64,000 bases of DNA, from contig OZ024761.1 of assembly GCA_964016885.1 (NCBI GenBank), forward strand, positions 14,694,001 through 14,758,000. Direction: 5' to 3'. Below the pieces are notes generated by a model. It worked only from the letters and a program-made list of their open reading frames with translations. It was not told the DNA's origin and ran no database searches. The position numbers were made by a program, and so were the translations under genes. This DNA comes from Eledone cirrhosa. Lineage: Eukaryota. This document shows, piece after piece, positions 9,597 to 48,879 of the stretch (positions are counted from its first letter, which is position 1; every line of letters begins with the position of its first letter).

Positions 9597-10349
9597 TACT
9601 ATAGAGTAAAGCATGTCCAGAGAATTATTTGATAATATATATACATCATCTCTACTCCCAATCAGCATAATTAACCACACAAAAAATCAATTAGACCAGA
9701 CTATAAGAATAAAAGGCATCTATGAAGAAACAGTAAATAAATACGCCATCGTGGCGTCTTCGCGTGCAACCTCTATAGAATATTTACTCAACATTTCAAC
9801 AGCACGTGGAAACTAATTAAATACACGGTCAACCATACATAATTAGGTAAAAATTAATGTTAGAAATGCTTATATACAAATATATACAAATATATATTAT
9901 CAAATAATTCTCTTGACATGCTTTACTCTATAGTATTTCGCTCTGATTAATTTATTAATTCTCCATTGAGCCACACCGTGAAAAGTTGCAAAAACACATA
10001 TATACCTGTGACTTTGTTTAATTGGTGTATGTGTAAATATTTACATAATAGTATAAAGAAATTTATAACCCCACTATCCGGGAGCTTCCAACAGAAATGG
10101 TCGCATTCTTTAAGGGTATGTCAATATTTATTTATAAAACTGCTCTATATTATATTTTATCTGATGAAAGCACACCATAATTTAACTTGGTGTCCTTGAA
10201 ATATGTATAATGAAATAAATATGGTTTTATAAATATAGTTTCCATTTATTAATATATCGTATTTTTACTCCAATAATTTGTTGAGTGCTTTATATCAGTT
10301 ATAAAAATATTTGCTTGTTGTATCCCAACAATTTAAATAGAACTTCTAC
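9597..10349 (+). mobile_element. Family-B Penelope-like remnant: inverted 5' piece plus pseudo-LTR with HHR
   Basis: 9597-9645 is the reverse complement of ~9890-9935; HHR at 10153-10217; ends in (TA)n; homologous to 13608 and 48434. Confidence 0.75.
10153..10217 (+). ncRNA. Minimal type I hammerhead ribozyme
   Basis: tattttat CTGATGA aagcacacca...tggtgtcctt GAAA tatgta TA atgaaata: stems I and II pair, near-palindromic stem III. Confidence 0.8.
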
Positions 10350-10518
10350 ATATATATATATATATATATATATATATATATGTGTGTGTGTGTGTATTTG
10401 TGTGTGCGTGTGTGTAACAGCTGATTTAACATAAACGTGTTATTTTCTCAAGAAATAATTCCGTTTCTTCGCTGTCTGTCTCTTCTCTATCTTTCTCTAT
10501 CTTCTTCTTTTTCTCATT

Positions 10519-10575
10519 CTATCTTCTGATGAAGGACTACAGTGATATGTGAGTTGGTCCGAAATGTAAAGGGTA
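10519..10575 (+). ncRNA. Decayed minimal hammerhead-like motif
   Basis: tatctt CTGATGA a ggact...ggtcc GAAA tg TA aaggg; stem I imperfect. Confidence 0.45.
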
Positions 10576-10912
10576 AATTTTTCTTAATTCCGTTTTCATT
10601 TCTTTTTTTTTTTTTTGGTGACTTCCCATTTGTCCGTTTTCACTTTTGATAAATTCCATTATTTTCAAAAATGTTATTGTATTTTACGAGTAAATTTCAA
10701 TAAATTGTACTGTATGTATGTGTGAATGTATGTACGGACAGACAGACTGACCCGCAGACTGACATACAATACTTCTAGAGTACTTTTTGTTTTCAACATG
10801 GCGGAACCCACCTCCTATTCAGGTCTGAATACAGCAGATGGGAAGAAAAGTATGGATGGGAAGAGAATGGAAGTGAGAAAGAGACACAGTGGAAAATCGA
10901 CCCCAAAACGAG

Positions 10913-11118
10913 ACTGGTATTTTTTTTTTATCGACCTGGAATAGATGAAAGGCAAAGTTGACCTCGGCGGGATTTGAACTCAGAATAGCAAGGGCCGTAA
11001 CTCTATGCGTCAAAGCATGGCGTCCGACCCTCTTCCGATACTGCCAATTCACCGCCCAAAATAAAGTACCATTAATGCACTGTGGTAATTGCTGGCCTTG
11101 TGCCAAAAAGTAGAAATC
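10913..11118 (-). mobile_element. SINE family 1 (minus) followed by an inverted tail segment
   Basis: gatgaaaggcaaagttgacctcggcgggatttgaactcag...ccgcc, then plus-orientation aaaataaagtacc...gccttgtgccaaaaagtagaaa. Confidence 0.8.
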
Positions 11119-12304
11119 CTCATTGTTGTTATTATTGCTGTTGTTGTTGTTGTTGTTATATAAAAGTAACTATTTTGGATCGTCTTGATGTCTAATTTGT
11201 TTCTTTTTTTTTGTCTCGTTTTCTCTTTCTCTCTAGAATAAGCTGTAACAGAAATTATGAAAAAAACTGTGATTGTATGTGTGTGAGAGTGTCTGTGTGT
11301 GTCTGTCAGTGTGTGTGTGTGTGTGTATGTGTGTCTCTGTGTGATGTGATTGTGTGTGTCTGTGTGTCTCTGTGATAGTGTGTGTGTATATGTGCATGTC
11401 TGTGTGTCTGTGTGTAATTGGGCGTGTCAGTGTGTGTGTATATGTGTATGTCTGTGTGTCTGTGTGTGATTGTGTGTGTCAGTGTCAATGTGTGTGATTG
11501 TGTGCCAGTCTGTATGTGTGTGCCAGTGCGTATGTGTGTGTGTGTGCGTGTGTGTGTCTGTCTGTCTGTCTGTGTGTGTGTGTAAGCGGGTATATGGCGG
11601 CGGTGAAAAAGACGGAAGGGAGGTGAGTAGAATTGTATTATTATTAATTATTACATTTGGTAAAAGCAGACGATATTTTATTTTATTTTATTTCCATTGA
11701 TACAGAAAATTTCACGTGAGGGTTGGTTTCTATTGTTTCGTAAATTACAGACGAATCTCTCGCCCAACCCTTCTCTTGATCTCTCTCTCTCTCTGTCTCT
11801 CTCTGTTTCTCTCTCTCTCCCTTGCCCCCACGCTCTCTTTCTCTCTCTATCTATCTATCTATCTATCTCTTGCACCTTCTTTGTCTGTCTCTCTCTCTCT
11901 CTCTCTCTCTTTCTGTCTATCTCTCTCTCTCTCTGTTTCTATCTCTCTCTCTCTCTCTATCTCTATCTCTCTTGCTCTGTCTGTCTCTCTCTCTCTCTGT
12001 CTCTTGCTCTGTCTCTATCCCCCCCCCCTCTATCTCTCCTCCCTCTCTCTCTCCCCTGTTCTCTCTCTCAACACAATATTCAAACCCAGAAGAAGACAAC
12101 GACAATTTATAACAAAATGGCGAAATCTATTTTTTCGTTCTTTCAATTAAAAAATAGATTTTCATCATGTTTTATTTTGTGTGTGTGTTTGCATAATTTT
12201 ATCCTGTCCAACCAAAAACAGGTTTTTTTTTGTCTCTGATTTTCTTCACTTTCTCTTAGGGAGTTTTGTTTGTTTGCGGGGTTTTTTTTTTTTTTTTTTT
12301 GCTT

Positions 12305-46299: not shown

Positions 46300-46860
46300 A
46301 TCGTTTGCACTGGCGTACTGGCTGACGTGTTGACTGACGGTCTGACTTTCTGGCGTTCTGATGGTCTGGCGTTCTGGCAGTTGACGTTCTGGCGTCCTCA
46401 TGGTCTGGCGTTCTGGCAGTCTGACGTGTTGACGTCCTGACGTTCTGATATGTTGGCATACTGATGTGCTGAATTTCGAACGTTCCGACATTCTGACATG
46501 TTGAAGTTCTGACGTAATGACATACTGATGTAATGACGTTTGACGTTATGGCATACTGACCTAATGACGTTTTGCCGTTATGACGTTTCTACGGTATGCC
46601 GTAATTACACACTAACGTAATGACGAGCTGACGTGATGACTTGTTGACGTACTGGCGTTCTGACGTAATTACATATTAACGTAATGACGCGCTGGCGTTC
46701 GACATTGACGAAATAACGCGTTGACGTTACGAGGTACTTCCGTAATGACGTGTAAACTTTCTGACATGCTGGTGTGCTGACCATATGACGTACTAACCCT
46801 CTAACGTTGAAGTTTTGACGTATTGACATACAGACGTTTTGATGAACTAGTTCAGACTTT
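46300..46860. repeat. Degenerate short-period TGACGT/TGGCGTTC-rich tandem region
   Basis: Many tgacgt, ctgac and ggcgttc motifs with ~8-bp periodicity. Confidence 0.6.
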
Positions 46861-47649
46861 GAATAAGTCTTAGTCAAAGCGTGATAGCGTGTTCTACTGC
46901 GTTTTAATTTCTGTGGTTCTTGGTGTGTGTGTGTGTGTGTGTGTGTGTGTGTGTGTGTGTGTGTGTGTGTGTGTGTGTGTGTGTGTGTGTGTGTGTGTGT
47001 GTGATAATGTGTCGGTGTTCGTAACTTCATATAGAGAACTAAGGCCCCTCTAGTTTTCCATTTGCACTTACAACCTGTATCATGGGAGGAAGGGGGAAGA
47101 AGGGTAATGTGTGTATCTGTGTCGGCTCTGGATTGCATATGAATATACAAAACCCTTCACCGAAAGCTCGGTACAAACTACCACATCGTACTCGATTGTC
47201 AATGACGGTCGTATATTTATTTATTTTCTTATTTTCATTGTCCCCAGCTGGCCGCCATTGTTGTGCCGAAAGGAAATTCACGTAAATGCTAAGTTTATTC
47301 AGGGTTGTTGTTTTTTTGCCTCATAAATCCTCCCTTGTATTTTAATTTTATTCCTCCTTAAATTGGCCTGATTATAAGATTTTGTTGTTGCTTTGTTTGT
47401 TTTCGTCCCTTTTCTTATCTTTTTCTTTGAATTTATTTATCTACGTATGAAGCAGGCGATAAGGCGGCCATGTTGAAAGTTTTGAAAATACTTCATTGAA
47501 TTAAGTTGTTGGCTTGACCTTCTGAACTGAGCAGAACAAACAGACGAACGAACGGAAGGACACCACATATTATTCTCGCAGGGGTGAATAAAACAATATT
47601 ATGCCCCGGTTAGAGAGGAGAAATTAGAGTTTATTAATAATAAACAGAC

Positions 47650-48150
47650 GGGACACATATATACACATATACACACACACATATACATATATACAAACAT
47701 TCAAACACATATGTACACAGAAAAATATATACACACACACATATATATATACATACATTCACACACATATGTACACAGACAAATATACACACACACACAT
47801 ATATATAAACAAACATTCAAACACATATGTACACAGACAAATATATACACACACACATATATATACATACATTCACACACATATGTACACAGACAAATAT
47901 ATACACACATACATATGTACACAGACAAATATACACACACACACATATACATACATTCACACACATATGTACACAGACAAATATATACACACACACATAT
48001 ATATATACATACATTCACACACATATGTACACAGACAAATATATACATACATTCACACACATATGTACACAGACAAATATATACACACACATATATATAC
48101 ATACATTCACACACATATGTACACAGACAAATATATACACACATACATAT
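47650..48150. repeat. ~30-55-bp minisatellite (acacatatgtacacagacaaatata...)
   Basis: Visible tandem units. Confidence 0.85.
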
Positions 48151-48433
48151 ATATATATATATGACATTCACATACAGATACATATACACACACATATACA
48201 TATACGCACACACACATATATAGACACACATACACATACAGTCACACATTTATACAAACATACACACACTTTTATGGGTGGTGAACAATATAATCTCAAG
48301 GTCTGGTTGAACAAAAATAATTTAATAAAATATCGGTATGTAAGACATCCCTTTTCATTTCAAAAGTGTATATATATATATATATGTGTGTGTGTGTGTG
48401 TCTTGTGTGTGTGTATACATATATATAAATGTA

Positions 48434-48879
48434 TATACGATATATTAACAAATGCAAACTATATTTATAAAACCATATTTATTTCATTATACATATCTCA
48501 AGGACACCAAGTTAAATTATGGTGTGCTTTCATCAGATAAAATATAATATAGAGCAGTTTTATAAATAAATATTGACATACCCTTAAAGAATGCGACCAT
48601 TACTGTTGGAAGCTCCCCAATAGTAATGGTCGCATTCTTTAAGGGTATGTCAATATTTATTTATAAAACTCCTCTATATTATATTTTATCTGATGAAAGC
48701 ACACCATAATTTAACTTGGTGTCCTTGAAATATGTATAATGAAATAAATATGGTTTTATAAATATAGTTTCCATTTGTTAATATATCGTATTTTTACTCC
48801 AATAATTTGTTGAGTGCTTTATATCAGTTATAAAAATATTTGCTTGTTGTATCCCAACAATTTAAATAGAACTTCTACA
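48434..48879. mobile_element. Family-B palindromic PLE pseudo-LTR with HHR in both arms
   Basis: Centre ~48603-48622; intact HHR at 48682-48746 (+); mirror at 48480-48545 (-) has GAAA>GAGA. Confidence 0.85.

What the first reader, a model, noticed from the sequence alone, without database searches (positions are those of the whole stretch)
10153..48746. Four diverged minimal hammerheads share stem I and a conserved C.Y mismatch at stem II position 4
Seen: HHRs at 10153/13652/48682 (family B), 43128 (B'), 33711 and 37758 all have stem I TATTTTRT/ATRAAATA and a 6-nt (near-)palindromic stem III (tatgta, tatata, tgcgca). Their stem II sequences differ but pair by covariation. In every family the fourth position is unpaired: aagC/Cctt, aggC/Ccct, ggaC/Ctct, aaaC/Tttt. 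Known: PLE minimal HHRs with a palindromic stem III are thought to cleave as dimers, and stem I-II tertiary contacts boost activity. Inference: the conserved mismatch may mark an uncharacterised tertiary contact or protein-binding site.
Basis: partly seen in the sequence, partly recalled or inferred. Interest (0 to 1): 0.72.

Follow-up and report, generated by a model that had tools for sequence, protein, structure and literature searches.

The report
Transposon hammerheads with a fixed mismatch
Eight hammerhead-shaped RNA motifs sit in the broken ends of likely Penelope-type jumping genes and all keep one unpaired cytosine at the same step of an otherwise fast-changing helix, likely a docking point that helps a predicted self-cutting RNA of a known kind to fold.

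Summary
There are eight type I hammerhead motifs (the six named plus two inverted partners) in four families, three of them deeply diverged. Each has three stem II pairs, then C·C or C·U, then more pairs, and 4 of 6 neighbouring pairs show two-sided changes. Public reads show C·U is fixed in family C (other letters 0.02% and 0.03%), while seven stem positions vary, always keeping the pair. They are not 'minimal': stems I and II are both long. Insertion in (TA)n, head-to-head copies, two discrete 3' ends and a bulged tail hairpin shared with published Hydra-clade consensus sequences mark them as Penelope-like (likely Hydra-clade) remnants. No ORF is attached. The mismatch is probably selected (about 0.8), but what it does is inferred only. 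Stem I–II docking is my best guess (0.45), ahead of a protein site, a folding brake or plain inheritance. Cleavage and expression are untested. It is a new variant of a known kind. This scan already noted the same mismatch and tail hairpin on other DNA of this genome.

The parts
10073..10349 (+). Family B copy 1: PLE end fragment with the long 3' end (tail), followed by (TA)n
10153..10217 (+). Type I hammerhead B1; mismatch C10171.C10194; predicted cut after AUA between 10209 and 10210
10129..10235 (+). Extended stem I of B1: 8 bp, bulged purine at 10152, 5 bp, 5-nt bulge 10142-10146, 13 bp
   Evidence: z -3.2, 0 of 200 shuffles; variants
10267..10288 (+). Tail bulged hairpin (RCTC-hairpin-2 nt-GAGY), 57 nt after the predicted cut and just past the short 3' end
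13606..13797 (-). Family B copy 2, short 3' end, (TA)n on both sides; hammerhead 13652-13716, mismatch C13698.C13675
48435..48624 (-). Family B inverted arm, short 3' end; hammerhead 48480-48544 with GAGA in place of GAAA (predicted inactive)
48617..48881 (+). Family B direct arm with tail; hammerhead 48682-48746, mismatch C48700.C48723; tail hairpin 48796-48817
42855..43046 (-). Family B' inverted arm, short 3' end; hammerhead 42899-42964
43046..43322 (+). Family B' direct arm with tail; hammerhead 43128-43193, mismatch C43146.C43170; tail hairpin 43242-43263
33588..34000 (-). Family C copy with tail (5' limit approximate); hammerhead 33711-33781, mismatch C33763.U33734; tail hairpin 33640-33666
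37716..37900 (-). Family D copy, short 3' end (5' limit approximate); hammerhead 37758-37824, mismatch C37806.C37781

Best explanation
These are hammerhead-shaped motifs in the leftover 3' ends of likely Hydra-clade Penelope-like retrotransposons, predicted to cut only when two copies pair through their palindromic helix III, and the fixed C.Y mismatch at pair 4 of helix II is likely the point where helix II docks on the invariant U-A-rich helix I. Shown: the motifs, their covariation, the fixed mismatch, the (TA)n context, the head-to-head copies, the two 3' ends and the tail hairpin. Inferred, in order: (1) a tandem element RNA carries two motifs; (2) the 8-nt palindrome forms helix III between them, since a 2-nt loop cannot close it in a monomer; (3) both helices run on past the height of the usual loop-loop contact and the helix II end loop sits at a variable distance, so the mismatch is the only fixed-height feature that could replace that contact; (4) cutting follows AUA, probably slowly and possibly with protein help; (5) reverse transcription likely starts downstream, next to the tail hairpin, giving the short and long ends. 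Step odds: PLE hammerhead 0.95, Hydra-clade 0.8, mismatch selected 0.8, docking if selected about 0.55.
For: Pair 4 is unpaired in 8 of 8 copies, while 4 of the 6 neighbouring pairs have two-sided changes. The 5' C is the same in all four families although their flanks are 44-56% identical outside B/B', with transversions at least as common as transitions; 0 of 27 flank columns holding a C are C in all four. Family C in run X1: other letters 0.02% at the C and 0.03% at the U, with 7 of 7 stem changes of 2% or more keeping the pair on the sense strand (chance 0.018) and bulge positions varying 29-53%. Family B in X1: the counts by kind of change leave no change of 3% or more at either C, and no C>G repair reaches 3% in any of the three runs that mapped. 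Helix I differs among families only by one-sided U.G/G.U changes, and U1.7 is invariant. The canonical contact lies after 4 bp of helix II and 6 bp of helix I and involves U1.7 (PMC4209133 text; PMC11875169 passages). PLE anatomy: 3' ends at 49-53 nt or 131-140 nt after the cut, with the short end on the inverted arms, as for the PLE tail (PMC8557442 passages; PMC11167929). Tail hairpin: 12 hits against a shuffle mean of 0.07, and a strict match by eye in 3 of 6 Hydra consensus sequences.
Against: No cleavage, structure or expression data. The canonical partner of U1.7 (a loop II adenine) is absent, U1.7 is Watson-Crick paired, and no G that could pair with the C is conserved in the helix I bulge (A/G in B, C in C, U in D). 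Only three deep lineages were available. One other stem II position (11.7, U) is also invariant, and all cross-family stem II changes are transitions. The flank alignment used as background is gappy, which inflates apparent divergence. Rare changes at the mismatch exist: C>U in 42 of 1051 reads from 4 starts and U>A from 16 starts in RAD run X18, and one loose-end string shows A at the C position, which would pair. Hydra-1_aMil has two 7-8 bp helices without a mismatch, so long helices do not force one. No ORF is linked to any copy.
Confidence: 0.45

Rival explanations
1. The unpaired C is a recognition point for the element's RT/endonuclease protein (or a host protein) that switches the ribozyme on.
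For: The one PLE hammerhead tested with its protein cut only when protein was added (PMC11167929). Identity of the 5' C is kept while its partner is C or U, and helix I is kept in sequence.
Against: In that paper the protein-binding motif was placed in the first 172 nt of the ORF, and the help was attributed to binding at the RT-start stem-loop. Here the tail hairpin, shared by unrelated families without the mismatch, is the better protein site. 0 of 26 published Hydra-clade hammerhead rows have the mismatch.
Confidence: 0.2
2. The mismatch is a brake or hinge: it leaves only three weak pairs at the base of helix II, keeping the ribozyme slow until dimer formation, and any poor pair would do.
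For: Other features also point to a weak ribozyme: A-U or G.U rather than G-C at pair 1, and the AUA site, slowest of four triplets in PMC1636495 (abstract). In family C the predicted hairpin leaves pairs 1-3 open. 15 of 26 Hydra rows open helix II with U.U or U.C, so a pyrimidine mismatch in helix II is common in the clade at another position.
Against: U.C, U.U or purine mismatches should then appear in some lineage; only C.C and C.U are family-level states.
Confidence: 0.2
3. The mismatch is simply inherited from one ancestor; paired positions drift by transitions through G.U, and a tolerated Y.Y spot was never repaired.
For: All 12 variable stem II positions differ by transitions only, and 2 of 14 positions are invariant. 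16 of 74 flank columns are invariant and 25 of 74 are all-pyrimidine. Within one family most positions are invariant anyway (38 variable places over 261 nt in X1).
Against: Transversions are plentiful at free positions (17 of 38 variant places in X1); every neighbouring pair is kept paired under selection; 0 of 27 C-bearing flank columns keep C in all four families.
Confidence: 0.15

Closest known systems
Hammerheads of Hydra-clade Penelope-like elements (Craig et al. 2021, PMC8557442; section 11, passages, Files S1, S2 and S7 read)
   Same: Type I hammerhead near the 3' end, (TA)n insertion, U at 11.1 in many rows, inverted 5'-truncated copies with a one-sided tail; a bulged RCTC/GAGY hairpin after the hammerhead (strict match by eye in Hydra-2_Amil, Hydra-1_Ajap and Hydra-2_Ajap, a variant in Hydra-1_Crog, absent from 2 of 6).
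   Different: 0 of 26 rows have an internal helix II mismatch. Their helix III has a 1-3 nt centre and starts AC, against the 8-nt AU-R-Y-R-Y-AU palindrome here. No row has this U-rich 8-bp helix I. Hydra-1_Obim's hammerhead is a different sequence. No ORF was available here to place the families.
Minimal and variant PLE hammerheads with a small palindromic helix III (Cervera and De la Pena 2014, PMC4209133; text parts 1-2 of 4, supplement parts 1-2 of 3 read)
   Same: Type I core, long helix II, palindromic helix III suited to dimers, many diverged families per genome with covariation, most copies truncated.
   Different: Their consensus has an extra base after A9, G10.1-C11.1 and a 2-6 bp helix I; these have no extra base, A-U or G.U at pair 1 and a long bulged helix I. 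By eye, 2 of 56 rows have a mismatch at pair 4 (U.U, C.A), none C.C or C.U.
Canonical metazoan type I hammerheads and non-LTR retrozymes (PMC7229834, passages; bioRxiv 10.64898/2026.07.22.740005, part 1 of 5)
   Same: Type I topology, weak palindromic helix III, a helix I interrupted by a bulge, U1.7.
   Different: Those have a 4-bp helix II with a loop that contacts helix I and lie in tandem repeats of about 300 bp; these have no loop at that height and are dispersed or head-to-head.
PAc (Poseidon) hammerhead and tail (Frangieh et al. 2024, PMC11167929; parts 1-2 of 4 read)
   Same: Two 3' ends downstream of the hammerhead that define a tail, tied to a stem-loop.
   Different: The tail here is about 85 nt rather than 30-40 nt; the PAc ORF starts inside helix II, and no ORF does so here.

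Membership tests
Type I hammerhead ribozyme | CUGANGA and GAAA boxes, A15.1-U16.1, NUH site, three helices with helix I open | tested here: met
   7 of 8 copies intact; one has GAGA
Type I hammerhead ribozyme | Match to an Rfam hammerhead model | tested here: not met
   0 hits at gathering score in the window; no hammerhead among 15 weak hits for 10100-10400. Long helix II and the 2-nt helix III loop probably fall outside the models (inference).
Type I hammerhead ribozyme | Self-cleavage | not testable with these tools
   needs an assay
Minimal PLE hammerhead (min-HHR consensus) | Extra base between 9 and 10.1, G10.1-C11.1, short helix I, no real helix III | tested here: not met
PLE hammerhead variants with palindromic helix III | Small palindromic helix III able to pair between two copies | tested here: met
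   duplex -2.2, -3.2 and -10.5 kcal/mol for B/D, B' and C; no monomer hairpin
EN+ Penelope-like element | Inverted 5'-truncated copy and a tail on one end only | tested here: met
   42855-43322 and 48435-48881; ends at 49-53 or 131-140 nt after the cut
EN+ Penelope-like element | RT plus GIY-YIG ORF next to the pLTR | tested here: inconclusive
   No ORF upstream of B1, C or D; all copies are short remnants
Hydra clade | Insertion into (TA)n | tested here: met
   every insertion ends in a TA-rich microsatellite; the trait is shared with Naiad, so not diagnostic alone
Hydra clade | Protein marks (RWK, DKT, CxCX5C, no CCHH) and RT phylogeny | not testable with these tools
   no linked ORF and no genome
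Hydra clade | Tail hairpin as in published Hydra consensus sequences (my criterion, not the authors') | tested here: met
   4 of 4 long-ended copies; 3 of 6 consensus sequences by eye
Non-LTR retrozyme | Head-to-tail tandem repeats each with a hammerhead | tested here: not met
   copies are single or head-to-head

The most novel reading that the evidence does not exclude
A hammerhead lineage folds by an undescribed tertiary mode in which a cytosine from a 1x1 pyrimidine mismatch inside a continuous helix II docks on a fully paired U-A tract of helix I, replacing the loop-loop or pseudoknot contacts known so far.
Probability: 0.3. Interest if true: 0.65.

Novelty: new variant of a known kind. 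Interest (0 to 1): 0.4.

Why it matters
Known fast hammerheads use loop-loop or pseudoknot contacts between helices I and II, and PLE hammerheads are described as lacking recognisable contacts and cutting poorly. A single fixed, easily mutated base gives a cheap test of whether a third docking mode exists, or whether PLE proteins read their ribozyme. That bears on the open question of what hammerheads do for Penelope elements. If the mismatch is only inherited, the finding is an ordinary family signature.

Tried and rejected
No own genome is held, so no genome-wide model search was possible. A mismatch-blind pattern gave 0 hits in viral contigs and 26 in metagenome contigs, none with a hammerhead-shaped stem II and a matching helix III, so all were rejected as chance. 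Rfam gave no hammerhead hit. The covariance model found only the 8 known copies plus 2 junk hits at E above 1. No RNA holder listed. Hi-C run X14 laid 0 reads, so it was no test. Run X7 laid only 2 records. In one search only 40 of 79 variant rows were shown; for runs X17 and X6 hidden C>T or C>A rows at the mismatch cannot be excluded. The endonuclease-like fragment at 15408-15752 found no significant match in two protein searches, Pfam or the Atlas; its likeness to Hydra endonucleases is by eye only. A pseudoknot between the helix II end loop and the helix I bulge was rejected: loop distance and sequence differ among families and no shared complementarity was seen by eye. A coding constraint on helix II was rejected: no open frame. 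Paper searches that did not surface a description of the mismatch: 0 papers; 0 papers. The 2017 RNA Biology paper on dimer-cleaving PLE hammerheads (recalled) was not held, so it is unchecked.
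Full report
Observation. The window is a 37% G+C, microsatellite-rich animal sequence. 'Octopus-like' rests on my recall of its SINE and on earlier scan notes, not on a test. All six named hammerheads are present, and two more lie in inverted arms at 42899-42964 and 48480-48544. In 8 of 8, helix II reads three pairs, then C.C (B, B', D) or C.U (C), then further pairs; helix I is TATTTTRT/ATRAAATA; the site is AUA. Seven intact motifs of this shape were found against a mean of 0.0 in 200 block shuffles. 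On five distinct copies, 85 of 85 cells at the other 17 pairs are standard pairs and 5 of 5 at pair 4 are not; pairs 2, 3, 5 and 6 of helix II and one helix III pair change on both sides; 0 of 500 shuffles reach the score and all slid registers are worse. The structure was taken from these same sequences, which favours it in the slid control.

The motifs are not minimal. In family B helix I continues through a bulged purine, 5 bp, a 5-nt bulge and 13 bp (z -3.2); B' keeps this extension largely through U.G changes. C and D have shorter extensions after pyrimidine-rich bulges. Helix II is about 10-16 bp. B and B' are 82% identical in the flanks, while the other pairs are 44-56% identical, so there are three deep lineages.

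What carries them. Every insertion ends in a TA-rich microsatellite, and two are head-to-head (42855-43322, 48435-48881). The 3' ends fall in two classes: 49-53 nt after the predicted cut (B2, the B' inverted arm, D) and 131-140 nt (B1, B', C); by eye the two arms at 48 kb follow the same rule. That is the one-sided PLE tail (PMC8557442 passages), which in PAc equals the stretch between two RT start sites (PMC11167929). The tail begins with a bulged hairpin, RCTC-hairpin-UN-GAGY, 52-57 nt after the cut. It occurs 12 times in the window against 0.07 in 300 shuffles: 4 in these families, 6 in a fold-back family, 1 after another hammerhead at 18467, 1 unassigned. By eye it matches 3 of the 6 Hydra consensus sequences in File S7 strictly. 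The Hydra lead came from earlier scan notes, and I checked it against Files S2 and S7. No ORF adjoins any copy, so Hydra membership is likely (0.8), not shown.

Is the mismatch selected? For: family C laid on public data, with the full variant table shown (39 rows). In run X1 (1512 contigs) the C has 0.02% and the U 0.03% other letters, and no U>C or U>G row exists, so C.U is the family state; runs X5 and X7 (other organisms; 28 and 2 records) show no other letter there. Seven stem positions vary at 2% or more and all keep the pair on the sense strand (26 of 46 possible transitions would; chance 0.018), while three bulge positions vary at 29-53%. In flanks, 0 of 27 columns holding a C are C in all four families, and transversions match or exceed transitions outside B/B'. 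Against: only three lineages; 2 of 14 helix II positions are invariant and the other 12 differ by transitions only; the flank alignment is gappy; mapping at 80% identity hides diverged subfamilies; RAD run X18 shows C>U (42 of 1051 reads, 4 starts) and U>A (16 starts), and one loose-end string from 3 contigs has a pairing A at the C position, beyond the median length of the string. I put selection at about 0.8.

Mechanism. Helix III can form only between two copies (duplex -2.2 to -10.5 kcal/mol, no monomer hairpin), as proposed for PLE hammerheads, which cut poorly in vitro (PMC4209133). The canonical helix I-II contact sits after 4 bp of helix II and about 6 bp of helix I and uses U1.7. Here the end loop of helix II lies 10-16 bp out and differs among families, so the mismatch is the only feature at a fixed height, and helix I is conserved in sequence, U1.7 included. 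Docking is therefore my best guess (0.45 overall). It lacks the canonical adenine partner, and Hydra-1_aMil shows two long helices without a mismatch. A protein site (0.2) draws on the protein-assisted PAc ribozyme, but the tail hairpin is the more obvious protein signal. A brake (0.2) fits the weak first pair, the AUA site (PMC1636495 abstract) and the U.U or U.C opening of helix II in 15 of 26 Hydra rows. Plain inheritance gets 0.15.

Comparison and novelty. PLE hammerheads with palindromic helix III are known. In the tables I read, 0 of 26 Hydra rows and 0 of 56 metazoan rows have C.C or C.U at pair 4; 2 of the 56 have another mismatch there. Eight paper searches surfaced no description of the feature. 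The library lacks most subscription papers, one directly relevant 2017 paper was not held, and bioRxiv supplements were closed. PMC3088659 and PMC7936874 were seen as passages only. Earlier notes of this scan report the same mismatch with genome-wide counts and the same tail stem. I could not check their counts and do not use them as support. Verdict: a real, probably selected signature of a known kind of ribozyme in dead transposon ends; new variant; interest 0.4.

Noticed in passing
window 9346-9600, 20684-20934, 37477-37719, 38468-38605, 49752-50013, 53551-53790, 57473-57661: A family of about 200-nt fold-back elements between (TA)n runs holding only the 3' half of a hammerhead (GAAA, 6-bp helix III, GUC site) and the same bulged tail hairpin, which starts 6 nt after the short end.
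   Followed up: partly
window 18460-18600 +: Another small hammerhead (2-bp helix II opened by U.U, palindromic helix III) followed by a 1-nt-bulge form of the tail hairpin at 18539-18560; looks Hydra-type and has no pair-4 mismatch.
   Followed up: partly
window 15408-16270 +: Decayed PLE 3' end: an endonuclease-like frame resembling Hydra elements by eye (no database match), split by a SINE with an apparent target duplication, then a hammerhead-like motif with a U3-A8 core near 16225-16270.
   Followed up: partly
window 10518-10580 +: A textbook minimal PLE hammerhead (extra base after A9, G10.1-C11.1, 6-bp helix II), unrelated to the mismatch families.
   Followed up: no
window 10116-10121 and 10296-10298 +; same places in B' and (donor only) D: GTATGT upstream of the hammerhead in B, B' and D and a pyrimidine run ending in CAG inside the tail of B and B': a possible intron that would remove the hammerhead. 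Family C lacks both marks.
   Followed up: no
window 43390-43525 and 38268-38407: Two more fold-back insertions; the first has hammerhead core boxes in its unpaired centre.
   Followed up: no
window 29229-29256 +: One further tail-like hairpin with no hammerhead seen in the 140 nt upstream; a second GAGCAC follows at about 29350.
   Followed up: no
window 10073, 13797, 48624: Three family B copies begin at about the same 5' position (ACTAT...), suggesting a defined boundary or a short non-autonomous unit.
   Followed up: no
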